A DNA stretch of 64,000 bases from Candidatus Woesearchaeota archaeon. GTDB lineage: Archaea; Nanobdellota; Nanobdellia; Pacearchaeales; GW2011-AR1. The notes below the pieces were generated by a model, which saw only the letters and a list, made by a program, of their open reading frames with translations, made no database searches and was not told where the DNA came from. Position 1 is the stretch's first letter, and each line of letters begins with the position of its first letter. Shown here in pieces: positions 44,894 to 58,687 of this stretch. Both the position numbers and the translations under genes were made by a program. The stretch spans positions 33,956-97,955 of the forward strand of contig CAYORV010000001.1 in the NCBI GenBank assembly GCA_964406515.1, in the 5' to 3' direction.

Positions 44894-47083
44894 ATGGAAG
44901 TATCTCCTGCAGAAATAATCGATAGAATGAGCATTGTTCGATTAAAAATAGAACGAATAGGAAATCCTGAATTAAATTTAGAGATGACTGCGCTGAAACA
45001 AGCACTTGAAGAATTTAGAGAGGGAGAGATTCATATTGAAGATGGGTGGCTTGATGAACTTTATGATATAAATTCAAAAGAATGGGATTTATTAGATAAG
45101 ATGAATGAAGAGAAAAACAAAGGGAATTATGAGGAGGTTGGAAAATTATACTTGGAAACAGAGATGTTGAATAAAAAGAGAAGCAATGTTAAAAATAAAA
45201 TTGTCGAAAAAACAGAAAAGGGATTTAGGGAAATTAAAAAAGGTCATATTTCTGATATGGATAATAAGGAACTAGAAGAAGAAAATAAAAAAGTTCTTCA
45301 AGAAGAGTGTGTAAAAGTTTCTCTTGAAACAGCTAGGGGGGGAATTAAAGAATCCTGTGTGCTTCCAGAACATTTAAGTCAATATGAGGTGGATATTAGT
45401 CCGGAGACTAAAGCCGTGCTTATTACTCCAGACATGGGAAAAGTGAGTAATAAAGATGAAATCATAATTCCAAATCTTCATAATGGTCTCTTTCGGATTC
45501 ATGCATTTCTTCATGAAAAAAATATCTCCTCAGTTACATTGGATACTAGCCTTGATAATGTAAAAAGAGCGTGGGAGTTAATTGGTCGGCACAAGCCCCC
45601 TTTTATTGCATTTAGTCCTTATTATGATAGCATACGTAATGATTTAAACAACGTTGTAAAGGTTCTTGAACTTTCTCCCAATTCTATTATTGTAGCTGGA
45701 GGATTTGAAGCATCACTTAACCCTCAATGGGAAACTCTCGGGGGATTGATAGATATTCTTGTCAAAGGCGAAGGAGAATGGGCTTTAACAGAATTGATTC
45801 AAAGGCATCAAAAGTTTTTTCAGGATAATCCTTATGCAGACAAATTAAAATTTTTAGAGTATTTAAAAAAAGACTTTGAAATTCATCCAATTCCAGGAGT
45901 TTCTATTTTGAGTGCAGATGGCACAATACAAACATCTCCTGTAAAAAAGAGAATTGACCCTAATTTGTATCAGGAAATAAATCTCAATGCATTTCAAAAG
46001 TATCTATCTCTTTCACCAATCGAAAAATATTGGAAGATTAATCGGTGGTTATTTGGGGGTAAAAAGGATGCGTATTTTCGTTTTGTTTCTAGTGATCACT
46101 GCCCCTATAAGTGTGTTTTTTGCCAAAGTTCTGTTTATTATTCAAAAATTATGGGGAAAAAATTTTCTCCTGTTCGTTATATCAATCCTGAAAATATATT
46201 AAAAATAATCAAAGCTGTTTCAGACCAACTTCCATTTATTAATGGTATGTATATAGATGATGAGAATTTTATAATCAATCGTGAGCGTGCAATTGAAGCA
46301 TTAAATTTGATCATTGATGGACGGGAAACTGGAGAAATACGAAAGGACATAGTATTTCAGTGTAGAACAAGAACAGATAATATTGATTCGGAGATTTGCA
46401 GACTCTTGAAACAAGCAGGTTTTGAAACAGTATCTGTAGGATCCGAAAGTTATTCTTCTAAGGAATTGGAATATTTAAATAAAAATACTTCTCCCGAACA
46501 AAATTTGAAAGCAATTAAAATTATACTGGATAGTGGACTCAATGTAGCGGAGAATTATATTTTGTTTACTCCTGCCACAACTGCAGATACATTTTATGAT
46601 AATGCTTTGAGAATTTGTCAGAATATTGGGGAATTGGGTGTTGATGGAACTGCTACATTATTTTTAACTCCTCTTCCCGGGACTAAATTGTGGGGGGATG
46701 GAAATTATGAAATAGTGAGAGATTTTCCTTACAAACAAGAATTATTTAAAAATAAAGTGATGTTTTATAATCCAAAAACAGGATATGATTATATCGGAGA
46801 AGAAATTAAAGTTCCGGGAACAAATAGTATTCTTCCTCACCCTGAAATTATGTTGGTAAATAATCCTTTAATGCGTAAAGTTTCCTTGGAATTTCTCCAG
46901 CATCTCCCAAAAACTATTAATTATTTTAGAGAACTTGCAGGTGGAGAACATTCTCTTTCTAGAGAATTTATTACCTTGGCCAATCTCTCGGCAGCTTCAG
47001 AAATCTTATATGGATTAACAAAAGAACAACGTTGGAAGGATTTAAACAATAGAATTGAAGAGATTGTGAGAAAGAAATCCTAA
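44894..47083 (+). CDS. Cobalamin-binding radical SAM enzyme with a ~250-aa N-terminal extension
   Basis: 'SSDHCPYKCVFCQSS'. B12-binding segment 'VLELSPNSIIVAGGFEAS'. N-terminal charged / coiled-coil-like region has no known motif. Confidence 0.65.
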   Translation: MEVSPAEIIDRMSIVRLKIERIGNPELNLEMTALKQALEEFREGEIHIEDGWLDELYDINSKEWDLLDKMNEEKNKGNYEEVGKLYLETEMLNKKRSNVKNKIVEKTEKGFREIKKGHISDMDNKELEEENKKVLQEECVKVSLETARGGIKESCVLPEHLSQYEVDISPETKAVLITPDMGKVSNKDEIIIPNLHNGLFRIHAFLHEKNISSVTLDTSLDNVKRAWELIGRHKPPFIAFSPYYDSIRNDLNNVVKVLELSPNSIIVAGGFEASLNPQWETLGGLIDILVKGEGEWALTELIQRHQKFFQDNPYADKLKFLEYLKKDFEIHPIPGVSILSADGTIQTSPVKKRIDPNLYQEINLNAFQKYLSLSPIEKYWKINRWLFGGKKDAYFRFVSSDHCPYKCVFCQSSVYYSKIMGKKFSPVRYINPENILKIIKAVSDQLPFINGMYIDDENFIINRERAIEALNLIIDGRETGEIRKDIVFQCRTRTDNIDSEICRLLKQAGFETVSVGSESYSSKELEYLNKNTSPEQNLKAIKIILDSGLNVAENYILFTPATTADTFYDNALRICQNIGELGVDGTATLFLTPLPGTKLWGDGNYEIVRDFPYKQELFKNKVMFYNPKTGYDYIGEEIKVPGTNSILPHPEIMLVNNPLMRKVSLEFLQHLPKTINYFRELAGGEHSLSREFITLANLSAASEILYGLTKEQRWKDLNNRIEEIVRKKS

Positions 47084-47388
47084 ATATACCCTCTATCTCC
47101 AAGATGTTTTTTTAACTTCGCCTCTTCCCGCTCAGTATACGGATCCACTTCTTCTTCCTCGGCGTCTATTTTTTGTATTTGATTTCCTATAGCAGTTGCA
47201 AATTCTGCCTCTTCATCTTTAGTATATATTTCCTTTCTTTCATCTTCTTCATTTTCAAAAACTACTTGTTCTAAAACAAAAGTGATATATTGTTGAATAG
47301 ATTCAAAACTTGTTTCTTTTGTTTTCTTTTCTAATTTTTGTTTTAATTCCTTAGAAATTGAAAGATTTATTTTATTTGCCATCTTCAC
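47080..47388 (-). CDS. Small acidic protein with an RHH (CopG/Arc)-like N-terminus (family member 1 of 3)
   Basis: 'INLSISKELKQKLEKK...SIQQYITFVLEQ' beta-alpha-alpha pattern. Acidic tail with two 'YTxEEA' repeats, ending '...LKKHLGDRGYI'. 4-nt overlap with the upstream sulfatase-family gene. Confidence 0.4.
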   Translation of the reverse strand: MKMANKINLSISKELKQKLEKKTKETSFESIQQYITFVLEQVVFENEEDERKEIYTKDEEAEFATAIGNQIQKIDAEEEEVDPYTEREEAKLKKHLGDRGYI

Positions 47389-48815
47389 AATAATTTATTT
47401 TGCTTTATAAGAATTTGTATTCTTCTTTTTTCATTTAGTGTTTTCAGATCTCTTAAGGTTTTGTCTAATTTTGATTTCATTTCTCTTGTAATCTCTTTAT
47501 TTTTTTCAGCTAAATTTATATTTTCGTCCGGATCTTTTTCTAAATCATATAATGCGGTAATTGGTCCGTGCGTTGTATTACAGAGACAACACACAGAATT
47601 CTCTTTTTCAGGAGATTCCATATATTTATATTTTTTTGTTCTAATCGCTCTTCTTTTTATTCCTGCTGCATTTCCCTCTAAAATGATAGATTCTCTAATC
47701 TCTTCATCTTTTCCAAATAAGAGTGGAAATAAACTTTTACCATCAAATAATAAGGGGTCATATTTTATGCCGATTAAATCTAAAACTGTTGGAGCAAGAT
47801 CTTTTGATTGAATTAATGCTTCAACTTTTTTATTTTTTGGAATTTCTCCCCCAAAAATTATTAAGGGTATGCTAAAATTTGCATCGTATACTCCAGTATT
47901 ACTCAAACACAACACATGCTCACAAGGATCCATTCCATGATCTGCAAACAAGAAAACTATTGTGTCTTTTAGCAAGTTTTCATTTTTTAAGGTGTCAATT
48001 ATTTTTTCTATTAAAAAATCATCATAAAAAATGGCTGTATCATATTTTGCTATTAATCCTTCAAAAGTTTCATCAGACTTAAAACTATTCTTAGTCATCT
48101 CTATCGCTTTTTTATTATAACCTTCTGCAGAGTTTAATGCTTCAAATATCTTTTTACCTTCTTTAGTTGAAGTAAATTTATTATTCAACCAATGAGGAAA
48201 CATGTATGGGCCATGAGTCTCTTGATAATGTAAACAAAGAAAAAAATTATTTTCTTTATTTTGTTTTATTATCTCTATTGCATTGTTTGTGATTATTTCT
48301 CCATTATTATTGAATCGAATTTTGCTTTCCAATTTTTTTGGAACAATGTGGGTGTTGTGCAAAATAGATTTAAATAAATTGTACATCAATGGTTTTTTTT
48401 TGATAGATCTAATTAAACCCCATTTTTTTGATATGTCTAAATTATTTTGCTCAAAATAATAATCAAACCCCATTTTTTGCCAACCCCACAATTTTCTTGG
48501 AAAATGTGTTTTATAACCATTTTTTTGAAGTATTTCTGATAAGAAAACCCCTCCTGTCTCGAAAAAATAATCCATTTCCCTTTGTGTTGGATAATGCATA
48601 AAATCTTGTAATAAAAGATGTCTTCCACTGAGAATTGAGAAAAAAGATTTATGGGTGCCATTAGATACTGAGAAAAAATTTTTGAATAATACTCCTTGAC
48701 TTGCATAAGAATCTATATTTGGAGAAGTATTTCTTTCATATCCATAACAACCTAAGTTTTTTGGTCTTAAACCATCTATTGATAAAAAGATTATGTTTGG
48801 TTTTTTATTTTCCAT
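47385..48815 (-). CDS. Sulfatase-family (PF00884-type, AP superfamily) enzyme with Gly-Thr at the FGly position (Thr-nucleophile phosphotransferase/hydrolase type)
   Basis: 'PNIIFLSIDGLRPKNLGCYG...SVSNGTHKSFFSILSGRH' aligns with the sulfatase 'C-T-P-S-R' block but reads G-T-H-K-S. 'FADHGM'. Start taken at ATG 48815 (MENKKPN, matches the paralog); the track start at 48830 is a TTG. Confidence 0.65.
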   Translation of the reverse strand: MENKKPNIIFLSIDGLRPKNLGCYGYERNTSPNIDSYASQGVLFKNFFSVSNGTHKSFFSILSGRHLLLQDFMHYPTQREMDYFFETGGVFLSEILQKNGYKTHFPRKLWGWQKMGFDYYFEQNNLDISKKWGLIRSIKKKPLMYNLFKSILHNTHIVPKKLESKIRFNNNGEIITNNAIEIIKQNKENNFFLCLHYQETHGPYMFPHWLNNKFTSTKEGKKIFEALNSAEGYNKKAIEMTKNSFKSDETFEGLIAKYDTAIFYDDFLIEKIIDTLKNENLLKDTIVFLFADHGMDPCEHVLCLSNTGVYDANFSIPLIIFGGEIPKNKKVEALIQSKDLAPTVLDLIGIKYDPLLFDGKSLFPLLFGKDEEIRESIILEGNAAGIKRRAIRTKKYKYMESPEKENSVCCLCNTTHGPITALYDLEKDPDENINLAEKNKEITREMKSKLDKTLRDLKTLNEKRRIQILIKQNKLL

Positions 48816-48816
48816 T

Positions 48817-49104
48817 TCACATATATCCAAGATCTTCTAAACTTTCCTTCAAATCTGCTTCTTCCTCTCCGCTGTACCCCTTTCTCTTCTTATCTTCTTC
48901 ATCCCACCGAACATTTCCCTTAATGCCTGCTTCCTCTTCTTTTGTATATCCTTTTCTTTCTGTTTCCCTTCCAGAAAACATCTGTTCTAAAATAAAAAGC
49001 AAGTAATCTTGAATTGATTTAAAATTTGTTTGTTTTATCCTCTCGTCTAATTTTTGTTTTAATTCTTCGGGGATTGAAATAATTATTTCAGCTGTCATCT
49101 TCAC
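48817..49104 (-). CDS. Small acidic RHH-like protein (family member 2)
   Basis: 'IIISIPEELKQKLDERIKQTNFKSIQDYLLFILEQ'. 'GYTKEEEA...GYSGEEEADLKESLEDLGYM' repeats. Confidence 0.4.
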   Translation of the reverse strand: MKMTAEIIISIPEELKQKLDERIKQTNFKSIQDYLLFILEQMFSGRETERKGYTKEEEAGIKGNVRWDEEDKKRKGYSGEEEADLKESLEDLGYM

Positions 49105-50531
49105 AATAATTTATTTTTCTTTATAAGAATTTGTATTCTTCTTTTTTCATTTAATTTTTTCAAATCTCCTAAAGTTTTATCTAATTTTGATTTCATTTCT
49201 CTTGTAACTTTTTTATTTTTTTCAGCTAAATTTATATTTTCGTCCGGATCTTTTTCTAAATCATATAATGCGGTAATTGGTCCGTGCGTTGTATTACAGA
49301 TTCCACATACAGTGTGCTCTTTTTCAGGGGATTCCATATATTTATATTTTTTTGTTCTAATTGCTCTTCTTTTTATTCCTGCATTTTGTTCTTCCATAAT
49401 GATAGAATCTCTAATCTCTTTATCCCGACCAAATAAAAGCGGGAATAAACTTTTACCATCAAATGATAAAGAATCGTACTTTATTCCAATTAAATCAAGA
49501 ACTGTTGGAGCAAGATCTTCTAACTGGGTCAGTGCTTTAACATTTTTGTTTTGGGGAATTCCACTGCCAAAAATTATTAGGGGGATATTAAAAGAGACAT
49601 CATACACCCCCTCATTGTTGAAATAAACTTCATGTTCTCCAAGGCTTATCCCATGATCAGCGAATAAAAAAATGATAGTATCCTTTAGTAAATTCTCTTT
49701 TTTCAAAGTCTCAATTATTCTTCCTATCAATAAATCATCATAAAAAATGGCTGTATCATATTTTGTGGTTAATCCTTCGATGGTCTCATCAAATTTCCAA
49801 CAACCCCTTGAAAAATCTATATCTTTTTTATTATACCCTTCCATAGAATTTAATACCTCAAAGATTTTTTTACCCCCCGAGGGGATAGTGAATTTTTTAC
49901 TAAGAGCATAGGGAAACATATGGGGAACATGAGCATCATCATAATGTAACCATAAAAAAAAGTTGTTGTTTTTATTTTGTTTTATTATTTCTATTGCTTC
50001 ATTTGTCATTCTTTCTCCATTATTATTAAATCTTATTTTGCTTTCCAACCTTTTTGGGGTAAGATGAGTATTATGCAAAATAAATTTGAAGAAATTGTAT
50101 ATTAATGGTTTTTTTTGGAGAGATTTTATTAAATTCCATTTTTTTGATGCTTCTAAACTATCTTGTTCAAAAAAATAATCAAATCCTTTTTTTTGCCAAC
50201 CGAATAATTTTTCTAAAAAATGTGTTTTATAACCATGTTTTTGGAGTATTTCTGATAAGAGAACCCCCCCTGTATCAAAAAAAGAATTCATTTCTCTTTT
50301 AGAGGCATAATTCCCAAAATCTCTTGCTAAAATATGCCTTCCTCCGAGAATAGAGGAGAAAGATTTGTGAGTAACTGAGTAATACGAAAAAAAATTTTCG
50401 AATAATACTCCTTGGCTTGCATAAGAATCTATATTTGGGGAAGTATCTCTTTTATATCCATAACAACCAAGATTCCTTGGCCTTAAACCATCTACAGATA
50501 AAAAAATTATATTTGGTTTTTTATTTTCCAT
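49101..50531 (-). CDS. Sulfatase-family enzyme, tandem paralog of 47385..48815
   Basis: 'MENKKPNIIFLSVDGLRPRNLGCYG...' ~70% aa identity to the paralog, including long identical nucleotide runs. Confidence 0.65.
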   Translation of the reverse strand: MENKKPNIIFLSVDGLRPRNLGCYGYKRDTSPNIDSYASQGVLFENFFSYYSVTHKSFSSILGGRHILARDFGNYASKREMNSFFDTGGVLLSEILQKHGYKTHFLEKLFGWQKKGFDYFFEQDSLEASKKWNLIKSLQKKPLIYNFFKFILHNTHLTPKRLESKIRFNNNGERMTNEAIEIIKQNKNNNFFLWLHYDDAHVPHMFPYALSKKFTIPSGGKKIFEVLNSMEGYNKKDIDFSRGCWKFDETIEGLTTKYDTAIFYDDLLIGRIIETLKKENLLKDTIIFLFADHGISLGEHEVYFNNEGVYDVSFNIPLIIFGSGIPQNKNVKALTQLEDLAPTVLDLIGIKYDSLSFDGKSLFPLLFGRDKEIRDSIIMEEQNAGIKRRAIRTKKYKYMESPEKEHTVCGICNTTHGPITALYDLEKDPDENINLAEKNKKVTREMKSKLDKTLGDLKKLNEKRRIQILIKKNKLL

Positions 50532-50616
50532 TCATCTTAATATTTTAATCTATTTTTAAATTTTATGGACCTGGAATAGTAGAAATGTTTTAATACCTTA
50601 ATTTCATTTGTGAAGC

Positions 50617-50835
50617 ATGGATAAAAAAAGAGAATATGGAACAGTATCATTACCCTTGCCACTAATAACTTCTATTAAAGATAAGATTGAAGGAACAGGA
50701 ATACATTCTGTTTCTGCTTATATTTGTTTTATTCTTAGACAGATTCTTTCTTCTCCAGAAGAGAGTGATACTCCTTTAGACCGAAAAACAGAAGAAGAGA
50801 TTAAAAAGAGATTAAAAAAATTAGGCTATATCTAA
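50617..50835 (+). CDS. Small RHH-like protein (family member 3, single C-terminal repeat)
   Basis: 'VSAYICFILRQILSSPEES...KTEEEIKKRLKKLGYI' shares the helix and the C-terminal 'EEE.xK.L.xLGYI' with the other two. Confidence 0.35.
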   Translation: MDKKREYGTVSLPLPLITSIKDKIEGTGIHSVSAYICFILRQILSSPEESDTPLDRKTEEEIKKRLKKLGYI

Positions 50836-50898: not shown

Positions 50899-52317
50899 AT
50901 GGCAGAGGTTTCAAAAAAGAACGTGAGTAAAATAATGTTTCTAACTCCTAGATATACTTTGTTTAAAAATGATGTTAGAAGATGTGTGACTCCTCTTGGA
51001 TTAGCTTATTTAGGAGCATACTTGGAAAGAGAAGGTTATGAAGTAAAAATTCTTGATGTTGCTAATGAAGGGTATAATAATATTAAACCCAATTGTGAGT
51101 TTATTACTTTTGGTTTAAATGATGAAGAAATTAAAGAAAAAATCAAAGAATTTCAACCAGATATTGTTGGAGTTTCTTGTATATTTTCGACACAAGCAGA
51201 GAATGCAAAAGAGATTCTTAAGCTTGTTAAAGAAATTGATTCTGAAATTTTTACGATGATTGGGGGTTCTCATCCAACTTATGATTTATTAAATATTTTA
51301 GATAAAAATTATGTTGATTTTGTGGTGATGGGAGAAGGAGAATTGCCTGTTTCCCAATTACTGCTTGCATTAAATGAAGGAAAAGACCTATCTAAAATTG
51401 GGGGTCTTGCATACAAGTCAAACGGAAATAAAATAATAAACACCAACAAACAATATGTTGAAAACTTAGATGAATTAGCCTTTCCTGCGAGACATCTCTT
51501 AAATATGGATATGTATTTTAAGATTAATGCTCCACAAAACCCATATCCACAGGGAAAAAGGGTTGCTCAAATAATTACATCAAGGGGTTGCTCAGCGAAA
51601 TGTGTTTTTTGTACAACTACTAATTTTTGGGGGAATCGCCATAGAGGAAGAAGTGCTGAAAAAGTAATTGAAGAAATAAAGGAAATGAAGGAAAAATATA
51701 ATATAGATGAAATTCAAATCACAGATGATAATTTTACATTGAACAAAGAAAGAGCTATGCAAATTTTAGAAGGTATTAAGAATTTGAATTTATATTGGTG
51801 TGCTCCCCAAGGGATTGCTGTTTGGGCCCTAGACGAAGAATTATTGGAAAAGATGAAGGAAAGTGGTTGTTATCAATTGACTTTTGCTGTTGAAAGTGGT
51901 AATCAAAAAGTGCTGAATGAAATTGTGAAAAAGCCATTAAATCTTCAAAAAGTTAAACCTCTTGTCAAAAAAGCCAAGGAACTTGGAATTAAAGTTCATT
52001 CTTTTGCTATTTGTGGCTTACCTGGAGAAACAATAGAAAATATGCAAGAAACCTATGATTTTGTAAAAAATTGTAATTTTGATAGTGCTTCTTTTTTTGT
52101 TGCTACTCCCCTAATTGGTTCTGAATTATTGGAAACTTGTAAAAGAGAAGGTTGCTTAAGAAAAGAAATGACTTGTAAGGACCAATTGTTTAAGATTGGG
52201 AATATCTCAACTAAAGAATTTACTGCTAAACAAGTTCAGGAAATTTGTGCTAAGTTTAACAAGGAATATAATAAAAATGATACCAGGGAGAAAAAATTTG
52301 AAGATGAAAAATATTGA
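50899..52317 (+). CDS. Cobalamin-binding radical SAM enzyme (Fom3/PhpK-like position in a phosphonate operon)
   Basis: 'KIMFLTPRY...' B12-binding N-terminus. '[15 protein letters not shown]'. Overlaps the cytidylyltransferase-PEP mutase fusion gene by 14 nt. Confidence 0.7.
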
Positions 52318-53638
52318 AAATAAAAAAAGTGAAGATAAACCAAAAAAGATTTATGTGGCTATGTGTGCAGATTTGTTGCATCATGGACATATTAACATTA
52401 TAAAAGAAAGTAGGAAATTGGGAGAAGTTGTAGTTGGTTTGCTTACAGATGAGGCCATTGCGAGTTATAAAAGAGTTCCTCTTATCCCTTATGAACAAAG
52501 GAAAATAATTGTTGAGAATATAAAAGGTGTAAAAGAAGTTGTGGCTCAGGAAAATTTTGATTATGTTCCTACACTTAAAAAAGTGAGACCAGATTATGTT
52601 GTTCACGGAGATGATTGGAAAACAGGAATTCAAAGGAAGGTTCGGCAAAGAATTATAGATGTGCTTAATGAATGGGGAGGTAAAATTGTAGAAATACCTT
52701 ATACCAAAGGCATGTCCTCCACAGGACTACAAGGAAATGTAAAAGAAATAGGAATCACTCGAGAAATGAGAACGAAAAGATTAAGGAGGTTGCTTGAATT
52801 TAAACCACTGGTAAAAATTTTAGAATCCCATAATGGGTTGACAGCTATGATCGTAGAAAATACATTCATTGAAGAAAATAATGTAAAAAAAGAATTTGAT
52901 GGTGTATGGGTAAGTAGTTTAACTGACTCTGTCTCCAAAGGAAAGCCAGACACAGGAATTGTAGATTTGACTTCTAGATTGAGTACAATAAATCATATTT
53001 TAGAAGTGACTACAAAACCAATAATTCTTGATGGAGACAATGGGGGGGAAATTGAACATTTTTCATCCATGGTAAGAACATTGGAAAGATTGGGAGTTTC
53101 TGCAGTAATAATTGAAGATAAAATTGGATTCAAAAGAAATTCTTTATTTGGAACAGAAGCAAACCAATCACAAGAAGAGGTTTCAAAATTTGCAGAGAAA
53201 ATTTCTGCAGGGAAAAAAGTACAATTAGAAGATGATTTTATGATTATCTCGAGGATTGAAAGTTTAATTTTAGGAAAAGGAATTTATGATGCTCTTATTA
53301 GGGCAAAAGCATATATTGAAGCTGGAGCAGATGCCATAATGATTCACAGTAAAGAAAGAGATGGGAAAGAAATTTTAGAATTTTGTAAACAATATTCTCA
53401 AATTGAAAATAAAGTGCCCTTGGTCGTTGTGCCCTCTACATATAGCCATATTAAGGAAGAAGAATTAATCAATGCTGGAGTAAATATGGTTATCTATGCC
53501 AACCATTTATTAAGAAGTGCATATCCTGCAATGAAAAAAACAGCTGAAAAAATTTTATTGAATGAGAGAGCGTATGAGTGTGAAGAAGATTGCATGCCTA
53601 TCAAAGATCTTCTAAATTTAATTTCTGAAGGAAGATGA
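52304..53638 (+). CDS. Bifunctional cytidylyltransferase (HxGH) / phosphoenolpyruvate phosphomutase (Fom1-like architecture)
   Basis: N-term '[35 protein letters not shown]'. C-term '[15 protein letters not shown]', '[11 protein letters not shown]', '[18 protein letters not shown]', '[15 protein letters not shown]' and '[14 protein letters not shown]' match PepM/ICL-superfamily blocks. The ATG at 52304 is preferred; the track start at 52196 would lie inside the upstream gene. Confidence 0.8.
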
Positions 53639-54756
53639 TATCCTGCTCTGATTTAGCACACGTGTTTAAGGAAAATGATTTGACTTATTTTGCCGGTGTG
53701 CCTGATTCTACTTTTAAGGACTGGATGAGTTTTTTAGCAGATAGAAATAATTTAACAAACCGAATTGCATGTAATGAATGTGAGGCTATTGCTCTTGCAA
53801 CGGGATATCATCTTTCAACAAAAAATGTTGGAGTTGTTTATATGCAAAATTCTGGTTTAGGAAAAACAGTGAATCCTTTGACATCTTTAGCATCAAAAGA
53901 AGTTTATGGAATTCCTCTTATTTTAATGATTGGTTGGAGAGGAGAACCTGGAAAAAAGGATGAACCCCAACATAAAATGATGGGGAGAATTATGGAATCT
54001 CAACTTAAAACACTAGAAATTCCTTATTCAGTTCTCCCAGATAATATTGAAGATGTAGAAGAAACAATACGATGGGCTAAACAGACTGCAAAACAAAACA
54101 ACTATGCTTCAGCAATAATTATTAAAAAAAATACCTTGGAAAAATATGTCTCTGAGAATTCTACTGAAACAAATTATGAAATGTCAAGGGAAGAGGCAAT
54201 AAAAACTGTGATTGATAATTTGGAAGGAAATGAGGCAATTGTTTCAACAACAGGAAAAACTTCAAGAGAATTATTTGAATATCGGATTGCTCAAGGAGAA
54301 AAAGTCAGAGATTTTTTGACTCTTGGAAGCATGGGATGTTCTGCTTCAATTGTAGCAGAAGTGGCTTTGCAAAAACCTGATAAAAAGATTTATTGTTTTG
54401 ATGGAGATGGAGCCGTGTTGATGCAAATGGGGGCATTGTCCACTATTGGAAAATATAAACCAAAAAACTTTACTCATGTGATTTTTGATAATGCTTCTTA
54501 TGATTCAACAGGAGGGCAACCAACGAATTCAAGGAATGTTGATTTTGCACAGGTGGCAGAATCTTGTGGATATGTTAATACAAGAGTTGTTAAGACAAAA
54601 AGTGATTTAGGAAGAGTTGTTGAGAAATTAAGAAATTTAGAAGGGCCTAACATAGTTGTTGTTAATATTAATAAAGGATCGAGGAAGAATCTTGGAAGAC
54701 CCACAACAACACCCGAAGAAGATAAAACATCATTTATGGAATTTTTAGAAAAATGA
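53635..54756 (+). CDS. ppd: Phosphonopyruvate decarboxylase (TPP-dependent)
   Basis: '[16 protein letters not shown]' (Ppd N-terminal block). '[18 protein letters not shown]...[16 protein letters not shown]' TPP motif. ATGA overlap with the PepM fusion gene. Confidence 0.8.
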
Positions 54757-55856
54757 AACAACAAGAGTATTTTGACTTTGGAAGTTTAGAGAATCTTAGA
54801 GATATTTTGGAATATGAAAAATCAAGGAATGTTTTTCTTGTTACTGGAAGAGATTCTTATGAAAAATGTGGAGCTAAAGAAAAAATAGAAACGATCTTAG
54901 GAAATTCAGAAATTGGTTTTACAAGATTTTGTGATTTTTTTTCTAATCCTAACATAAAAGATATACAAAAAGGGTGTGATTCATTTAAGAAGAAAAACTA
55001 TGATCTTATTATGGGTGTTGGTGGTGGAAGTGTTATTGATACTGCAAAAGCCATTAAATTATTCAATTGCCCAAAAGCAGAGAAAATTCCTTTGATCGCG
55101 ATACCAACGACTGCCGGAAGCGGAAGTGAAGCTACGTGGTTTGTTGTTTTTTACAAAGGAAAAGAAAAACAATCTTGGGGAAATGAAACAATTACATTGC
55201 CCAATTATTCAGTCATTGACCCAAAATTAACAATGTCTCTGTCAAGAAAGGTTGCTGCGAGTACTGGTATGGATGCATTGGCTCAAGCAGTTGAATCATA
55301 TTGGTGCATTAATTCAACAGATGAATCAAAAAGAATTGCAAGACAATCGATAAAATTAACCTTAAAAAATTTGGAAAGAGCTGTTAATGGGAAAGGTAAG
55401 AGAGCAAGAGGAAATATGGCGTTATCTTCGAATCTTGCAGGAAAGGCCATTAACCTCACAAGGACTACTGCTTGTCATTCAATAGCTTATCCCATTACTT
55501 CTTATTTTGATGTTGCCCATGGGCATGCTGTTGGTTTAACTTTAGGAGAAATGCTGACTTATAATTCTAAAGTAACTGAAGGAGATTGTAATGATGGTAG
55601 GGGATTTGAGTATGCTAGAAAAACGATTAATGAATTAGTTGAGATATTTGAAGTAGGGTGTGTTGATGGAACTTCTCGTAGAATTAAAAATTTGATGGAT
55701 TCAATTGGATTAGAGACACGATTATCTGAAATAGAAATTGGCGAACAAGGAAGGGAGATTATAATCGACAAAGGATTTAAACCAGAAAGGGTTAAAAACA
55801 ATCCAAGGATATTAACAAGGAATGGATTGAGGAAAATTTTGGAGAAGATTGCTTAA
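54753..55856 (+). CDS. Iron-containing (group III) alcohol dehydrogenase (phosphonoacetaldehyde reductase, PhpC/FomC-like)
   Basis: 'DLIMGVGGGSVIDTAKAI' Fe-ADH glycine motif plus His-rich C-terminus ('CHSIAYP...HGHAVG'). ATGA overlap with ppd. Confidence 0.75.
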   Translation: MKQQEYFDFGSLENLRDILEYEKSRNVFLVTGRDSYEKCGAKEKIETILGNSEIGFTRFCDFFSNPNIKDIQKGCDSFKKKNYDLIMGVGGGSVIDTAKAIKLFNCPKAEKIPLIAIPTTAGSGSEATWFVVFYKGKEKQSWGNETITLPNYSVIDPKLTMSLSRKVAASTGMDALAQAVESYWCINSTDESKRIARQSIKLTLKNLERAVNGKGKRARGNMALSSNLAGKAINLTRTTACHSIAYPITSYFDVAHGHAVGLTLGEMLTYNSKVTEGDCNDGRGFEYARKTINELVEIFEVGCVDGTSRRIKNLMDSIGLETRLSEIEIGEQGREIIIDKGFKPERVKNNPRILTRNGLRKILEKIA

Positions 55857-57235
55857 TGAAAAAAGTATTTGTGTTTGGAATTGATGGTGCAATGCCTGAA
55901 AAGATTTTTGGCGAGTGGTTAGATGAGTTGCCAACCATCAAAAAACTTATGGGAGAAGGATGTTATGCTAAATTGAATTCGACTATTCCTCCTTTAACTG
56001 CTGTGGCTTGGACCTCTATGAGAACAGGTAAACCACCTGCTGAACATGGTCTTTTTGAATATATCTTTAGAAAAAAGAACTCTTACACAGATATGGGAGT
56101 TATATCTGCAAATAATATCCAAGAAAAATCTATTTGGCATATTGTATCTGAACACAATAAAAAATCAATAGTTTGTCTTGTTCCAATAACTTGGCCAATT
56201 AAACCTTTCACTGGAACAATTGTATCTGGATTTCTCACTCCAGATATTGAATCTGAATATACTTTTCCACGGGAATTCAAAAAAGAAATAAAATCTCTTT
56301 TTGACGAACCATTTATTATAGATCTCTATGATCATAGAAAACTATCTAAAAAAGAACTCTTAGAAAAATGTATTAAAATTACTGAAATGCATTTTAAATT
56401 AATGAAATATTTAATTCGAAAAAAGGAATGGGATTTATTTTTTGGAATAATTGCCGCGAGTGATTGGGTAAATCATAGTTTTTTCAAATATATGGATAAA
56501 GAACATAGAAATTATGAACCAGATTCTGAATTTAAAAATACTTTAAAAAATTATTATAAATTTGTAGATAAGAATCTTGGAGAATTGATAGAACTACTTC
56601 CAAAAGATACTACTATCATTATTGTTTCTGATCATGGTATAAAAAGGATGCATAATAGATTTAACTTGAGTGATTGGCTTTTGAAAAAAGGTTATTTGGT
56701 TTTAAAAGAAAAATTTGAAACAAAACTCCCTCTCAACTTAGAAATGATTGATTGGGAAAAAACAAGGGCTTGGGCGATTGGAGCATATGAAGGGCAGATA
56801 TTTATTAATTTAAAGAATCGAGAACCTGGAGGAATTGTAGACGAAAAAGATTATGATGAATTGGTGGAAGAGATTCAAGAAGGATTGTCTCAAATAAAAG
56901 GAGATCGAGGAGAGGAATTAGATACAAAATTCTTCAAGAAGAAAAAAGATTTTGTTGGGAAAAATAACCAACACGCTCCAGATCTGATGGTTTATTTTGA
57001 TGATTTGCAATATGGATGTAATAATTCTTTTGTCCACAATGAAACAATGTGGAATATTGAGACTCTGAAGGGGAAGGATGATGCGGGACATTCGAGACAA
57101 GGAATGTTTATAATGAACAAGTCTAATCAAAAGGGGTATATTGGAGAAATTGATATTTTAGATGTTGCTCCTACAATATTAAACCTATTAAAAGTAACAA
57201 TGCCCAGAGATCTTAAAGGAAAAATCATAAAATGA
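55856..57235 (+). CDS. Nucleotide pyrophosphatase/phosphodiesterase (NPP, PF01663-type) AP-superfamily enzyme
   Basis: 'VFGIDGAMPE', 'NSTIPPLTAVAWTSMRTGKPPAEHGLF' (T-x-P...TG..P..HG NPP block), 'VSDHGI'. TAATG overlap with the Fe-ADH. Confidence 0.6.
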   Translation: MKKVFVFGIDGAMPEKIFGEWLDELPTIKKLMGEGCYAKLNSTIPPLTAVAWTSMRTGKPPAEHGLFEYIFRKKNSYTDMGVISANNIQEKSIWHIVSEHNKKSIVCLVPITWPIKPFTGTIVSGFLTPDIESEYTFPREFKKEIKSLFDEPFIIDLYDHRKLSKKELLEKCIKITEMHFKLMKYLIRKKEWDLFFGIIAASDWVNHSFFKYMDKEHRNYEPDSEFKNTLKNYYKFVDKNLGELIELLPKDTTIIIVSDHGIKRMHNRFNLSDWLLKKGYLVLKEKFETKLPLNLEMIDWEKTRAWAIGAYEGQIFINLKNREPGGIVDEKDYDELVEEIQEGLSQIKGDRGEELDTKFFKKKKDFVGKNNQHAPDLMVYFDDLQYGCNNSFVHNETMWNIETLKGKDDAGHSRQGMFIMNKSNQKGYIGEIDILDVAPTILNLLKVTMPRDLKGKIIK

Positions 57236-57310
57236 TTTCTAAGCCTCCAAAATTTCATTGCCTATGAATACTCAATAAACTTTAAATAGTATTCCTAAAT
57301 AATTATTTTT

Positions 57311-58687
57311 ATGAGAAATAAAAAGGTGTTTGTTTTAGGGATTGATGGTGCTCCTCCCGAACTAATCTTCAATGAATGGTTGGATGATTTACCCGTAATT
57401 AAAAAATTAATGCTAGAAGGAACTTATGCAAAATTAAATAGCACCATTCCTCCTGTGTCTGCGGTTGCTTGGATATCGATGTGTACTGGAAAGTTGCCTT
57501 CTGATCATGGGGTTTTTGATTATATATGTAGAAAAAATAATTCCTATGAGGACATAAGTGTAGTTTCAACTAATAATGTTCAGGAAGAATCTGTTTGGGA
57601 AATTCTTTCTAGATATAATAAAAAATCAATTTTTTGTTTAATTCCAGTAACTTGGCCAATTAAACCCTTTGATGGCATTGGGGTTAGCGGATTTCTCACT
57701 CCGAGAGTTAAAAGAGATTATGTTTATCCTTCGCACCTACAACAAGAAGTTGAATCTCTTTTTGATGAACCTTTTATAATAGACATAGAAAAACATAGAG
57801 ATTTATCAAAAGAAGATTTGCTTGAAAAAATTTATAAAATGACTGAAATGCATTTTAAATTGATGAAGCATATGATAAAAAATAAACAATGGGATTTGTT
57901 CTGGGGAGTGATTATGGGAAGCGATAGAATGAATCATAACTTTTGGAGGTTCTTTGATAAGGGGCATAGAAGATATGAAAATAATCTTGAATTTGAAACT
58001 GCATTAAAAGATTATTATAAATTCCTGGATAAAAATCTTGGAGAATTAATTCAATTACTTGATGATGATACAACAATCATTGTAGTCTCGGACCATGGAA
58101 TACAGAAAATGGATACTAGGGTGAATTTAAGTGATTGGCTTATTAAAGAAGGATACTTGGTCCTTAAAGAACCTGTTAAAGAAAAAATGAAATTTACTAT
58201 GGATATGGTTAATTGGGACGAAACAAGGGTTTTTGCAAGGGGTGCATGGGATGGACAAATTTTTCTTAATTTAAAAGGCAGAGAAGAAAAAGGAATTGTG
58301 AATGAGGACGAATATGAAAATCTTATTGAAGAGTTAGAAATGAAATTAAAACAAATAAAAGGGGATGATGAAAAAGTTTTGGATACAAAGATTTTCAAGA
58401 AAAAAGATTATAGCGGGAAATTTGATAACATTGCGCCAGACATGATTATTTATTTTGATAATTTGAATTATGGATGTAATACAACTTTAATAGGAAATCC
58501 TACTTTTTGGTCTCCTCAAACAGCAATTGGTAGTGATGATGTCACTCATTCGAAAAAAGGGATATTTATTACTAATAATTCTCAGAAAGGAAACATTGGA
58601 GAAATTGGAATTATAGACATTGCTCCAACAATCCTAAATGAATTAGAAGTGCCAATCCCCAAAGATATGAAGGGGGAGATCTTATGA
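57311..58687 (+). CDS. NPP-family AP-superfamily enzyme, tandem paralog
   Basis: 'VLGIDGAPPE...NSTIPPVSAVAWISMCTGKLPSDHGVF...VSDHGI'. ~50% identical to 55856..57235. Confidence 0.6.
   Translation: MRNKKVFVLGIDGAPPELIFNEWLDDLPVIKKLMLEGTYAKLNSTIPPVSAVAWISMCTGKLPSDHGVFDYICRKNNSYEDISVVSTNNVQEESVWEILSRYNKKSIFCLIPVTWPIKPFDGIGVSGFLTPRVKRDYVYPSHLQQEVESLFDEPFIIDIEKHRDLSKEDLLEKIYKMTEMHFKLMKHMIKNKQWDLFWGVIMGSDRMNHNFWRFFDKGHRRYENNLEFETALKDYYKFLDKNLGELIQLLDDDTTIIVVSDHGIQKMDTRVNLSDWLIKEGYLVLKEPVKEKMKFTMDMVNWDETRVFARGAWDGQIFLNLKGREEKGIVNEDEYENLIEELEMKLKQIKGDDEKVLDTKIFKKKDYSGKFDNIAPDMIIYFDNLNYGCNTTLIGNPTFWSPQTAIGSDDVTHSKKGIFITNNSQKGNIGEIGIIDIAPTILNELEVPIPKDMKGEIL

What the first reader, a model, noticed from the sequence alone, without database searches (positions are those of the whole stretch)
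47080..50531. Recent tandem duplication of a two-gene cassette: Thr-type sulfatase-family enzyme plus a small acidic RHH-like protein
The minus strand carries [sulfatase-family 49101..50531][small 48817..49104][sulfatase-family 47385..48815][small 47080..47388], with 4-nt overlaps or 1-nt spacers, which indicates translational coupling. The two large genes share long identical nucleotide runs (for example 'aatgcggtaattggtccgtgcgttgtattaca' in both). Both enzymes have G-T-H-K-S where true sulfatases have C/S-T-P-S-R. They are therefore not FGly-dependent sulfatases; they look like Thr-nucleophile phospho(no)transferases or hydrolases of the LtaS/EptA/phosphonate-monoesterase type. Sulfatase-family genes are also a noted feature of the archaeal methylphosphonate locus.
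Basis: partly seen in the sequence, partly recalled or inferred. Interest (0 to 1): 0.6.

Follow-up and report, generated by a model that had tools for sequence, protein, structure and literature searches.

The report
Threonine "sulfatase" pair with detachable partner
Two old tandem copies of a sulfatase-shaped enzyme that has threonine where true sulfatases have formylglycine, each followed by a small ribbon-helix-helix-like protein that in some bacteria is fused to the enzyme itself, sit beside an archaeal phosphonate (2-hydroxyethylphosphonate) pathway and are good candidates for the unknown step that processes or attaches phosphonates to cell-surface glycans.

Summary
The minus strand carries [enzyme A][small A][enzyme B][small B] as a 1716-nt tandem repeat.

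The duplication is not recent. The enzymes are 75% identical in protein and 80% in DNA, with dS about 0.75 and dN/dS 0.20. Each copy has its own orthologues on other contigs. The long identical runs lie in the 3' quarter and look like local gene conversion.

Thr54 aligns exactly with the formylglycine Cys/Ser of type I sulfatases. The C/S-x-P-x-R motif and three sulfate-binding residues are gone, so these are not FGly sulfatases. By sequence and by fold they belong to the soluble arylsulfatase/phosphonate-monoester-hydrolase branch, not to LtaS/EptA.

The locus faces a Fom1-like cytidylyltransferase-PEP mutase, Ppd, Fe-ADH, a B12 radical-SAM enzyme and two PF01663 enzymes. This is a hydroxyethylphosphonate pathway with no MpnS.

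New here:
- A third small paralogue (50617-50835) heads the phosphonate operon.
- All three small proteins end in a conserved tail, ...LKxLGY(I/L/M)-COOH.
- In relatives this tail, or the whole small protein, is fused to the C-terminus of the enzyme (hhalign 96.8%, E 3e-10). True sulfatase loci never have it.

The small protein is therefore best read as a detachable module of the enzyme. The enzyme's substrate and any DNA binding by the small protein remain inferred.

The parts
49101..50531 (-). [quoted passage not shown]
   Evidence: Pfam PF00884 E 2e-46. Thr54 aligns with the FGly Cys/Ser of PDB sulfatases. AF2 pLDDT 92.7. Foldseek top hits are S1 sulfatases and PMH. No TM segment.
48817..49104 (-). 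Small protein A (long type; 95 aa from the GTG, 93 aa from the ATG at 49098): RHH-like N-terminus, acidic linker, C-terminal tail ...LEDLGYM.
   Evidence: AF2 topology is extended strand-helix-helix, then a disordered stretch, then a C-terminal helix. 100% identical to P0122, which is seen on 14 contigs.
47385..48815 (-). Enzyme B: paralogue of A (75% aa identity), also with Thr54.
   Evidence: It falls in a separate clade with its own orthologues P0004, P0009, P0010, P0011 and P0013.
47080..47388 (-). Small protein B (long type; 102 aa from the GTG, 100 aa from the ATG at 47382), tail ...LGDRGYI.
50617..50835 (+). Small protein C (short type, 72 aa): third paralogue and first gene of the divergent phosphonate operon, tail ...LKKLGYI.
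   Evidence: Orthologues sit at the same position in L001, L090 and L093.
50532..50616 (.). Divergent intergenic region with two conserved A/T-rich motifs (ATATTAAAACATTTC and CATAAAATTTAAAAAT). These are probably TATA-like promoter elements, and possibly operator sites.
   Evidence: Alignment with the orthologous spacers of L001, L002, L090 and L093. The function is inferred only.
50899..52317 (+). B12-binding radical-SAM methyltransferase, related to the P-/C-methyltransferases of phosphonate pathways.
   Evidence: Pfam PF02310 + PF04055. Best NCBIfam match is NF038361 at 353 bits, below its cutoff of 575.
52277..53638 (+). Cytidylyltransferase-PEP mutase fusion (Fom1-like architecture).
   Evidence: PF01467 + PF13714. 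TIGR02320 at 398 bits, above its cutoff. [10 protein letters not shown] motif present.
53635..54756 (+). Phosphonopyruvate decarboxylase.
   Evidence: TIGR03297 at 448 bits, above its cutoff.
54753..55856 (+). Fe-dependent alcohol dehydrogenase, the probable phosphonoacetaldehyde reductase that makes 2-hydroxyethylphosphonate.
   Evidence: PF00465. Best NCBIfam match is TIGR03405 Phn_Fe-ADH at 167 bits, below its cutoff.
55856..58687 (+). Two tandem PF01663 (NPP-type) enzymes of the alkaline-phosphatase superfamily (55856-57235 and 57311-58687, 60% identical).
   Evidence: Relatives are fused to nucleotidyltransferase or HD domains.
58684..59139 (+). Stand-alone cytidylyltransferase-like protein.
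   Evidence: PF01467.

Best explanation
The cassette encodes two long-diverged paralogues of a cytoplasmic, metal-dependent enzyme of the alkaline-phosphatase superfamily. The enzyme keeps the two-domain arylsulfatase/PMH fold but uses a Thr (Ser in some relatives) hydroxyl as nucleophile in place of formylglycine.

Shown:
- The fold.
- Thr at the nucleophile position.
- Retention of the metal tetrad D14/T54/D292/H293 and of H201.
- Loss of the sulfatase residues equivalent to EfAS R65, H112 and K324.
- No signal peptide and no TM segment.
- Conserved linkage to a cytidylyltransferase-PepM / Ppd / Fe-ADH / PF01663 operon.

Inferred: the enzymes act on the cytidylyl-activated phosphonate made next door (CMP-2-hydroxyethylphosphonate or a radical-SAM-methylated derivative). 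They would do so through a covalent phosphonyl-Thr (or CMP-Thr) intermediate and pass the phosphonyl group to a sugar or lipid-linked glycan that the surrounding 64-kb glycan island builds and a Wzx-type flippase exports. The two paralogues would differ in donor or acceptor, because their divergence peaks in the three active-site segments.

Each enzyme gene is coupled to a small protein made of an RHH-like dimerising or DNA-binding domain, an acidic linker and a conserved C-terminal helix ending in LGY(I/L/M)-COOH.

Shown: in relatives this tail alone, or the entire small protein, is fused to the C-terminus of the enzyme. It is absent from loci of true sulfatases.

Inferred: the small protein is a detachable subunit that docks on the enzyme through its tail. 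Through its RHH domain it would dimerise the enzyme, tie the enzyme to the divergent promoter of the cluster in the manner of PutA, or both.
For: Duplication and its age.

Nucleophile and active site:
- Alignments to PDB sulfatases place T54 on the FGly Cys/Ser, F58 on the CxPxR arginine, G15 on the second Asp, H201 on the conserved His, D292/H293 on D-N/H, and N306 on the sulfate-binding Lys.
- Of 122 aligned family sequences (the two window enzymes plus 120 homologues), 100 have T and 20 have S at this column. None has CxPxR.
- Invariant residues: D14, H201, D292, H293.

Fold: pLDDT 92.7. Best PDB matches are EfAS 9koq, choline sulfatase and PMH 4uph, at TM about 0.68. The roles of the EfAS residues are taken from PMC12421950.

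Cytoplasmic location: no TM segment, and the metal-binding Asp is at residue 14.

Linkage to the HEP pathway:
- The window itself.
- L001, L002, L090 and L093.
- L010, where Ppd-FeADH-Thr-sulfatase form one operon at only 35% identity.
- Fusion of a family member to a cytidylyltransferase-like domain (P0078).
- No LicD, CDP-alcohol transferase or MpnS in the window.
- CyTase-Ppm fusions make CMP-HEP (PMC6697681).

Small protein:
- Adjacent to the enzyme in every locus with enough flank.
- The tail was found only on small proteins beside Thr-type enzymes, on such enzymes themselves, and on one PF01663 enzyme, in a 1.54-Mb six-frame scan. One weak 293-aa match (L012) looks like chance. None was found at about 48 true-sulfatase loci.
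- 16 of 120 enzyme homologues end in the tail.
- The 565-aa Aminicenantes proteins carry RHH-like domain plus tail. hhalign against the small-protein profile gives 96.8% probability and E 3e-10.
- The two tail-bearing enzymes whose gene calls were inspected have no small gene next door.
- RHH support.
Against: - No biochemical data exist for any member of the family.
- The enzyme could be a hydrolase rather than a transferase.
- The co-conserved PF01663 enzyme, which has its own nucleotidyltransferase fusions, is an equally good or better candidate for the step that consumes the CMP-phosphonate.
- More distant members keep the enzyme + small-protein module in glycan clusters without PepM: L092, L094 and L106, next to PAPS-reductase-like genes, and L103, near an arylsulfotransferase. 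The family is therefore not phosphonate-specific.
- The RHH assignment does not reach Pfam's threshold for the window proteins (11.9 bits against 20.5), and the Foldseek hits are not significant (E about 6).
- Docking of the tail on the enzyme was not tested, because no complex prediction was available. The tail could instead bind a third partner.
- L002 pairs an A-type enzyme with a B-type small protein, so the pairing is not strictly cognate.
Confidence: 0.5

Rival explanations
1. The enzymes are hydrolases, not transferases. They would release free phosphonate and CMP from the CMP-phosphonate after radical-SAM methylation (the role FomD plays in fosfomycin biosynthesis), or trim or recycle phosphonate esters. 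The PF01663 enzymes or an unidentified protein would do the transfer.
For: The nearest folds are hydrolases (S1 sulfatases and PMH). EfAS and PMH hydrolyse phosphonate monoesters (PMC12421950). The cluster has the same architecture as Fom1 plus a B12 radical-SAM enzyme, and in that pathway cytidylylation is transient (PMC6697681). PF01663 relatives are fused to nucleotidyltransferases.
Against: The cluster is embedded in a large glycan-assembly island with a flippase and has no other candidate transferase such as LicD. The known Thr-type PF00884 enzymes are transferases (established knowledge of LtaS and EptA). The family also occurs in glycan clusters next to GT and AglB genes.
Confidence: 0.22
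2. The small proteins are ordinary RHH transcription repressors of the cluster that never touch the enzyme. Adjacency would reflect co-regulation only, and the C-terminal tail would be a dimerisation or oligomerisation helix.
For: The N-terminus is RHH-like, with a CopG-like K/T/S strand pattern. 13 of 56 relatives hit Pfam RHH_1, with a best E of 2.7e-4. Some source databases name relatives CopG or Arc/MetJ regulators. The short paralogue sits at the divergent promoter.
Against: The same tail, with no RHH domain, ends many enzyme homologues. The whole module is fused to the enzyme in Aminicenantes. In a Vicinamibacterales locus the motif follows the sulfatase domain inside secreted sulfatase-TPR proteins, where DNA binding is impossible. 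The module persists when all other neighbours change.
Confidence: 0.15
3. They are genuine sulfate-handling enzymes (a sulfatase or sulfotransferase for sulfated glycans) that use Thr/Ser in place of FGly.
For: Pfam and NCBIfam best hits are sulfatases. Distant members sit beside PAPS-reductase/CysD-like genes (L092, L094, L106) or near an arylsulfotransferase (L103).
Against: The C/S-x-P-x-R motif is absent in every homologue inspected. The equivalents of the EfAS residues R65, H112 and K324, which are needed for sulfate and phosphate ester hydrolysis, are F, F and N. No NCBIfam sulfatase model comes near its cutoff (138 bits against 481). In this window and at least five related loci the partners are phosphonate genes.
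Confidence: 0.07
4. The cassette is a very recent duplication or an assembly artefact, with one copy redundant or decaying.
For: Long identical runs, up to 89 nt.
Against: dS is 0.75 and dN/dS 0.20 over 476 gap-free codons. Each copy clusters with orthologues from other contigs. The arrangement was recovered in six independent assemblies. The identical runs are confined to the 3' quarter, where dS is 0.19-0.30, which fits gene conversion.
Confidence: 0.02

Closest known systems
Type I (S1) formylglycine sulfatases and the PMH/EfAS branch (for example E. faecium Mn-arylsulfatase 9KOQ and phosphonate monoester hydrolases 2VQR and 4UPH)
   Same: The two-domain fold (PF00884 + SGSH_C-like C-terminal subdomain), a soluble protein, the metal ligands Asp...Asp-His with His as fourth ligand as in PMH and EfAS, and the conserved His201 equivalent. 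These are the best sequence and structure matches.
   Different: The nucleophile is Thr/Ser, not FGly, and there is no C/S-x-P-x-R. The second Asp is Gly. The Arg, His and Lys that bind the sulfate or phosphate ester are replaced by Phe, Phe and Asn. There is an extra conserved CxxCxxxHG motif and a long basic C-terminal helix. The enzyme is partnered with an RHH-tail protein.
LtaS / EptA (LptA) / MCR-1 / OpgB: the Thr-nucleophile PF00884 transferases
   Same: A Thr nucleophile on a one-metal D/E-T-D-H site. These enzymes transfer a phospho-alcohol to a glycan or lipid acceptor through a covalent phospho-Thr intermediate, which is the chemistry proposed here.
   Different: Those enzymes have an N-terminal membrane domain, work outside the cytoplasm and use phospholipid donors. 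Here there is no TM segment or signal peptide, and only about 55-100-residue local matches to the EptA, MCR and CptA models (at most 51 bits against cutoffs of 400-1250). None appears among the top 50 fold matches.
NPP / PF01663 nucleotide pyrophosphatase-phosphodiesterases
   Same: The same superfamily, a Thr nucleophile, and action on nucleotide-linked phosphoryl groups. PF01663 enzymes are co-conserved in the same operons.
   Different: A different family. The Pfam match of the finding's enzymes to PF01663 covers only about 40 residues around the D-H metal motif.
Phosphonyl-tailoring (Pnt) and fosfomycin early steps: Fom1 CyTase-Ppm, Fom2/Ppd, FomC/PhpC, Fom3; LicD-type transferases
   Same: Neighbouring genes reproduce the CyTase-PepM fusion, Ppd, Fe-ADH and a B12 radical-SAM enzyme, so a CMP-activated HEP is expected (PMC6697681).
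   Different: No LicD, FomD, Fom4 or MpnS. The host is archaeal (DPANN-type). Two families of the alkaline-phosphatase superfamily occupy the place where a transferase or hydrolase is expected.
PutA (an RHH domain fused to an enzyme) and RHH type II antitoxins (ParD, VapB, RelB-like)
   Same: The architecture of an N-terminal RHH, a flexible linker and a C-terminal partner-binding segment. An RHH physically joined to an enzyme is seen here in the 565-aa fusions. The top (non-significant) fold hits are ParD, PrpA, NikR and VapB.
   Different: No toxin gene is present. The gene order is enzyme first. The conserved extreme C-terminal LGY(I/L/M) tail has no counterpart that I know of (own knowledge). 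DNA binding is untested.

Membership tests
FGly-dependent type I sulfatase (SulfAtlas S1) | C/S-x-P/A-x-R signature that supplies formylglycine | tested here: not met
   T-H-K-S-F aligns with C-x-P-x-R. None of the 120 homologues has the motif. The control loci with true sulfatases all show C/S-x-[PA]-x-R.
FGly-dependent type I sulfatase (SulfAtlas S1) | Sulfatase fold, N-terminal alpha/beta domain plus C-terminal subdomain | tested here: met
   PF00884 E 2e-46 and SGSH_C E 1e-13. Foldseek E 1e-26 and TM 0.68 to S1 sulfatases.
FGly-dependent type I sulfatase (SulfAtlas S1) | Sulfate-binding residues (equivalents of EfAS R65, K110, H112, H220 and K324) | tested here: not met
   The equivalents are F58, K108, F110, H201 and N306 by HMMER alignment, so three of five are lost. 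Residue roles are from PMC12421950.
Phosphonate monoester hydrolase (S1_0) | FGly nucleophile | tested here: not met
   Thr54. PMH carries FGly (PMC5066984).
Phosphonate monoester hydrolase (S1_0) | His as fourth metal ligand (D...D-H) and close fold | tested here: met
   D292-H293 is invariant. 4uph has TM 0.69. NF045661 PehA scores only 77 bits against a cutoff of 900, so this is a resemblance, not membership.
LtaS/EptA-type phospho-alcohol transferases | Thr nucleophile on a D/E-T-D-H metal site | tested here: met
   D14, T54, D292 and H293.
LtaS/EptA-type phospho-alcohol transferases | N-terminal multi-pass membrane domain and an extracytoplasmic catalytic domain | tested here: not met
   The protein starts 13 residues before the metal-binding Asp. 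The maximum 19-residue hydropathy is 1.13.
LtaS/EptA-type phospho-alcohol transferases | Family-level sequence or structure similarity | tested here: not met
   The EptA, MCR and CptA models match only about 55-100 residues at no more than 51 bits, against cutoffs of 400-1250. None is among the top 50 fold matches.
Ribbon-helix-helix (CopG/Arc/MetJ) superfamily (small proteins) | Beta-strand, helix, helix topology | tested here: inconclusive
   The AF2 monomer has an extended 1-10, H11-22 and H29-41. The top Foldseek hits are all RHH proteins but at E about 6. hhalign to CopG is in register, with pairwise E 0.0036 and probability 9%.
Ribbon-helix-helix (CopG/Arc/MetJ) superfamily (small proteins) | Pfam RHH_1 gathering score | tested here: not met
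   11.9 bits against 20.5 for small A. 13 of 56 relatives hit at E <= 1, with a best E of 2.7e-4.
Ribbon-helix-helix (CopG/Arc/MetJ) superfamily (small proteins) | Sequence-specific DNA binding as a dimer | not testable with these tools
   Needs EMSA or footprinting on 50532-50616.
Phosphonate biosynthetic gene cluster (PepM-dependent) | PEP mutase with the EDKxxxxxNS motif, plus phosphonopyruvate decarboxylase | tested here: met
   TIGR02320 at 398 bits and TIGR03297 at 448 bits, both above their cutoffs. The motif [10 protein letters not shown] is present.
Methylphosphonate (MpnS) locus | MpnS/HEPD-type oxygenase | tested here: not met
   No such domain in any ORF of at least 100 aa in the window.

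The most novel reading that the evidence does not exclude
The Thr-type sulfatase-fold enzymes, possibly together with the PF01663 enzymes, are a new class of cytoplasmic transferases. They would move nucleotide-activated anionic groups (here CMP-hydroxyethylphosphonate; in other loci perhaps adenylyl-activated groups) onto glycans through a covalent Thr intermediate. Their activity or expression would be governed by a dedicated RHH protein that plugs into the enzyme through an LGY(I/L/M)-COOH tail. This would be an enzyme-tethered transcription factor (a 'trigger enzyme') that exists in split, tail-only and fully fused forms across archaea and bacteria.
Probability: 0.3. Interest if true: 0.75.

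Novelty: new variant of a known kind. Interest (0 to 1): 0.6.

Why it matters
How phosphonates are attached to cell-surface glycans is an open step in phosphonate biology. Outside the LicD-type cases, Rice et al. 2019 call the tailoring steps after cytidylyl activation 'enigmatic' (PMC6697681).

This locus and its relatives nominate two co-conserved families of the alkaline-phosphatase superfamily as the missing enzymes for HEP-type clusters in DPANN archaea. That makes the question directly testable with CMP-HEP.

The enzyme is also a clean natural example of a nucleophile switch (FGly to Thr) inside the arylsulfatase/PMH fold, which bears on how the superfamily evolved.

The small-protein family has no Pfam model. 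It has at least 1098 clusters at 50% identity, a near-universal LGY(I/L/M) C-terminus, and occurs in split and fused forms with the enzyme. It looks like an undescribed enzyme-partner module.

In practical terms, 'sulfatase' annotations of these genes are wrong and inflate sulfatase counts in archaeal and candidate-phylum genomes.

Tried and rejected
1. The genome-contig scan with the enzyme alignment used the generic sulfatase motif LYDLxxDPxE and mostly returned ordinary bacterial sulfatases. It was useless for close synteny, but I reused it as a negative control.
3. Profile search of the small protein against PDB sequences: no hit at E <= 10.
4. Pfam and NCBIfam give no family for the small proteins.
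5. The Metcalf 2012 paper on the N. maritimus MPn cluster could not be retrieved.
6. Literature searches found nothing on a characterised phosphonyl transferase of this type, or on an RHH-sulfatase association.
7. HbYX-like proteasome motif, membrane-targeting amphipathic helix, and RiPP-like precursor for the tail: considered and not adopted. The invariant Gly at -3 does not fit HbYX. The tail also occurs on, or internally in, secreted bacterial enzymes. It also occurs on large enzymes with no radical-SAM neighbours.
8. Pseudoenzyme: rejected, because the metal ligands and the nucleophile are invariant or nearly so, and dN/dS is 0.20.
9. Taxonomic placement could only be inferred from the labels on homologues' records: Nanoarchaeota, Pacearchaeota and Woesearchaeota.

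Full report
**Observation**

A direct repeat of period 1716 nt covers 47243-48816 against 48959-50532. Identity drops to background on both sides.

The two large proteins align over all 476 residues without a gap, at 75% amino-acid identity and 80% nucleotide identity. The small proteins are about 48% identical.

The quoted 32-mer is present at 47551 and 49267, and the longest perfect run is 89 nt.

The junctions are tight. TGA overlaps a GTG start, or an ATG lies 2 nt after the stop. One nucleotide separates the small A stop from the enzyme B ATG.

The same arrangement is found on six independently assembled metagenome contigs, one of them 213 kb (L004-L009). One small correction: only copy B has G-T-H-K-S, and copy A has V-T-H-K-S.

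**Age of the duplication**

Nei-Gojobori estimates over the gap-free alignment give dS 0.75, dN 0.148 and dN/dS 0.20.

In a neighbour-joining tree of homologues, copy A groups with P0001, P0002, P0003, P0006 and P0005. Copy B groups with P0004, P0009, P0010, P0011, P0013 and P0017. Each paralogue therefore has orthologues in other organisms, and the duplication predates their divergence.

dS falls to 0.19-0.30 in the last 75 or so codons, where the 89-nt identical run lies. The simplest reading is local gene conversion. dN peaks in codons 41-80, 201-240 and 281-320, which are the segments holding the nucleophile loop, His201 and the D292-H293/N306 loop. That pattern suggests the two copies differ in specificity.

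A related contig (L002) has a single A-type enzyme followed by a B-type small protein, 74/100 identical to small B against 44/98 to small A. This is what a deletion by recombination within the near-identical 3' ends would produce.

**What the enzymes are**

Pfam gives PF00884 (E 2e-46) plus the SGSH_C subdomain. HMMER alignments to solved sulfatases map the residues as follows:

| This enzyme | Sulfatase equivalent |
|---|---|
| Thr54 | the FGly Cys/Ser |
| Phe58 | the Arg of C-x-P-x-R |
| Gly15 | the second metal-binding Asp |
| His201 | the conserved His |
| Asp292-His293 | the D-N/H metal pair |
| Asn306 | the sulfate-binding Lys |

At the nucleophile column of the 122-sequence alignment (the two window enzymes plus 120 homologues), 100 sequences have Thr and 20 have Ser, and none has a C/S-x-P-x-R context. 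D14, H201, D292 and H293 are invariant in a 44-sequence alignment.

The AlphaFold model is confident (pLDDT 92.7). Its best PDB neighbours are all soluble S1 sulfatases or PMH: E. faecium Mn-arylsulfatase 9KOQ, choline sulfatase and PMH 4UPH, at TM about 0.68. No LtaS or EptA appears in the top 50.

In EfAS the ligands are D20, C61, D311 and H312. R65, K110, H112, H220 and K324 are all needed for activity (PMC12421950). Here the equivalents of R65, H112 and K324 are Phe, Phe and Asn.

No NCBIfam model comes near its cutoff. The protein begins 13 residues before the metal Asp and has no hydrophobic segment, so it is cytoplasmic.

The family assignment to LtaS/EptA does not. The same paper notes that half of the PF00884 seed has Thr and should not be called sulfatase.

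**Context**

The cassette is transcribed divergently from an operon made of:
- a 72-aa protein;
- a B12 radical-SAM methyltransferase (best NCBIfam match is a P-methyltransferase family, below its cutoff);
- a cytidylyltransferase-PEP mutase fusion (TIGR02320 above its cutoff, motif [10 protein letters not shown]);
- phosphonopyruvate decarboxylase (TIGR03297 above its cutoff);
- an Fe-alcohol dehydrogenase;
- two tandem PF01663 enzymes;
- a further cytidylyltransferase and an MFS transporter.

A Wzx-type flippase follows.

The whole 64-kb window is a glycan-assembly island with about ten radical-SAM genes. It has no LicD, no CDP-alcohol transferase and no MpnS/HEPD-type gene.

The CyTase-Ppm fusion is the Fom1 architecture that makes CMP-HEP (PMC6697681). 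The expected product is therefore a CMP-activated 2-hydroxyethylphosphonate, possibly methylated, and not methylphosphonate.

Labels on homologues point to DPANN archaea: Nanoarchaeota, Pacearchaeota and Woesearchaeota.

**Conservation of the linkage**

The Thr-enzyme and the CyTase-PepM/Ppd/Fe-ADH/PF01663 operon are neighbours in these loci:

| Locus | Enzyme identity to copy A |
|---|---|
| L001 | 72% and 67% (two copies) |
| L002 | 84% |
| L093 | 67% |
| L090 | 52% |
| L010 | 35% |

In L010, Ppd, Fe-ADH and the Thr-enzyme form one operon. One family member (P0078) is fused to a cytidylyltransferase-like domain. PF01663 relatives are fused to NTP-transferase or HD domains.

More distant members of the family (about 43% identity and below) lie in glycan clusters without PepM, often next to a second, roughly 400-aa sulfatase-like gene and a PAPS-reductase/CysD-like gene (L092, L094, L106). 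The family as a whole is therefore glycan-associated rather than phosphonate-specific.

**The small proteins**

There are three in the window, not two. The 72-aa ORF at 50617-50835 shares the N-terminal pattern and the C-terminus.

Homologues fall into two types:
- a long type (83-102 aa), which follows the enzyme;
- a short type (71-78 aa), which is the first gene of the phosphonate operon.

About 100 of 120 end in LGY(I/L/M). A full HMMER scan finds 1098 clusters at 50% identity, and 122 of 145 new top hits end in GY(I/L/V/M/F). No Pfam or NCBIfam model covers them.

The RHH reading is plausible but not proven:
- The AF2 topology is extended strand, helix, helix, disordered acidic linker, then a confident C-terminal helix.
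- All top Foldseek hits are RHH proteins (ParD, PrpA, NikR, VapB) but are not significant.
- 13 of 56 relatives touch Pfam RHH_1, with a best E of 2.7e-4.

**The key new result**

The tail is not confined to the small proteins. I ran a six-frame scan of 1.54 Mb of fetched loci for ORFs ending in L-x-x-x-G-Y-(I/L/V/M/F). Apart from one weak 293-aa match in L012 that looks like chance, it found only three kinds of ORF:
- the small proteins beside Thr-type enzymes;
- Thr-type sulfatase-like enzymes themselves (L019, L021, L025, L029 twice, L039, L045, L078, L103-L105);
- one PF01663 enzyme (L102).

None of the roughly 48 loci with true C/S-x-P/A-x-R sulfatases has such an ORF. In the window only the three small ORFs have it. 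Sixteen of the 120 enzyme homologues end in EEKxIxxRLRxLGY(F/I/M).

The 565-aa Aminicenantes proteins (P0101, P0104-P0108, P0110, P0113) carry, after the sulfatase domain, a linker, an RHH-like segment and the tail. The last 77 residues of P0104 match the small-protein profile over its full length, with hhalign probability 96.8% and E 3e-10.

The two tail-bearing enzymes whose gene calls were inspected have no small gene beside them (L103, L105). In a Vicinamibacterales locus the motif follows the sulfatase domain inside secreted sulfatase-TPR proteins.

The long-type small gene touches a Thr-enzyme gene in every locus with enough flank: the window twice, L001, L002, L090, L092, L094, L096-L100 and L106, with one methyltransferase gene intervening in L093.

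There are thus three architectures (split, tail-only and fully fused). This is the classic signature of a physically interacting module.

**Mechanism, with status**

Shown:
- The fold, the Thr nucleophile position, the retained one-metal site and the lost sulfate-binding residues.
- The cytoplasmic location.
- Purifying selection on both copies.
- Conserved linkage to a CMP-HEP-type pathway.
- The modular relation of the small protein to the enzyme.

Inferred:
- The enzymes attack the CMP-phosphonate, form a phosphonyl-Thr (or CMP-Thr) intermediate and transfer the phosphonyl group to a glycan acceptor before flipping.
- The small protein docks through its tail and dimerises through its RHH domain. 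It may bind the conserved A/T-rich motifs of the divergent promoter, coupling enzyme state to expression as PutA does.

I put about 0.5 on this package. The main rivals are a hydrolase role (0.22), a purely transcriptional role for the small proteins (0.15) and sulfate chemistry (0.07).

**Novelty**

Thr-type PF00884 proteins are known as a class and are annotated 'sulfatase-like hydrolase/transferase'. I found no characterised member of this soluble S1-fold clade, no description of its association with HEP-type phosphonate clusters in archaea, and no description of the RHH-tail partner family or its fusions.

I rate it a new variant of a known kind, with interest 0.6.

Noticed in passing
window 55856-57235 and 57311-58687; also 1418-2506: A second tandem duplication of an alkaline-phosphatase-superfamily gene. 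Two PF01663 enzymes, 60% identical, lie in the phosphonate operon, and a third, shorter PF01663 gene lies 50 kb away. Relatives are fused to NTP-transferase (P0341, P0343), to HD domains (P0355, P0359), or to a pyruvate-kinase-like barrel ending in the same LGY tail (P0344).
   Followed up: partly
window 44894-47083 (+): A 729-aa ORF. Its first 120 or so residues are a stand-alone 121-123-aa gene in L001 and L002 (MEL/ISPAEIIDR...). Here that domain is fused to a B12-binding radical-SAM enzyme that ends 4 nt inside small gene B.
   Followed up: partly
window 50899-52317 (+): This B12 radical-SAM enzyme best matches the Sden_1168/PhpK-type P-methyltransferase models (353 bits, cutoff 575). It overlaps the PepM gene by 41 nt. 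It could methylate the CMP-phosphonate as Fom3 does, or create a C-P-C phosphinate.
   Followed up: partly
whole window 1-64000: The whole 64 kb is one glycan-biosynthesis island with about ten radical-SAM genes (B12-binding and SPASM types). It also holds GT1, GT2, GT4 and GT9 genes, GHMP kinases, SIS and cytidylyltransferase (heptose-like) genes, C-methyltransferase-dehydratase fusions and a Wzx flippase.
   Followed up: partly
enzyme A residues C23, C409, C412, H416 (window 49101-50531); the same in enzyme B: A C-x-x-C-x3-H-G motif, together with Cys23 (LGCYGY), is nearly invariant across the Thr-type family, including bacterial members. It is absent from the aligned true sulfatases. It may be a structural Zn site, but I could not measure distances in the model.
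   Followed up: no
L092 11518-13745; L094 20057-21425 and 11448-11914; L106 6418-10337: A triad recurs in Nano/Woesearchaeota glycan clusters that lack PepM: a small RHH-tail protein, a roughly 400-aa Thr-type sulfatase-like gene and a PAPS-reductase/CysD-like gene. This hints at a different nucleotide-activated anionic group.
   Followed up: partly
window 50532-50616 and orthologous spacers in L001, L002, L090, L093: Two conserved A/T-rich motifs (ATATTAAAACATTTC and CATAAAATTTAAAAAT) lie about 25-30 nt upstream of the two divergent start codons. They look like TATA/BRE elements for near-leaderless transcripts.
   Followed up: partly
L002 8042-9768: A single-copy relative pairs an A-type enzyme with a B-type small protein. 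This is as expected from deletion of small A plus enzyme B by recombination in the near-identical 3' ends.
   Followed up: yes
P0362, P0399, P0438, P0463, P0502 (small-protein family): Some family members have a conventional N-terminal RHH followed by one or two copies of the RHH-like + tail module, or have two tails in series. The module therefore behaves as a mobile, repeatable unit.
   Followed up: no
L022 8815-14295 (Vicinamibacterales): A bacterial locus carries two PF01663 genes, a 63-aa RHH-tail protein and two secreted Thr-type sulfatase-TPR fusions. In those fusions the KLRALGYV motif is internal, directly after the sulfatase domain.
   Followed up: partly
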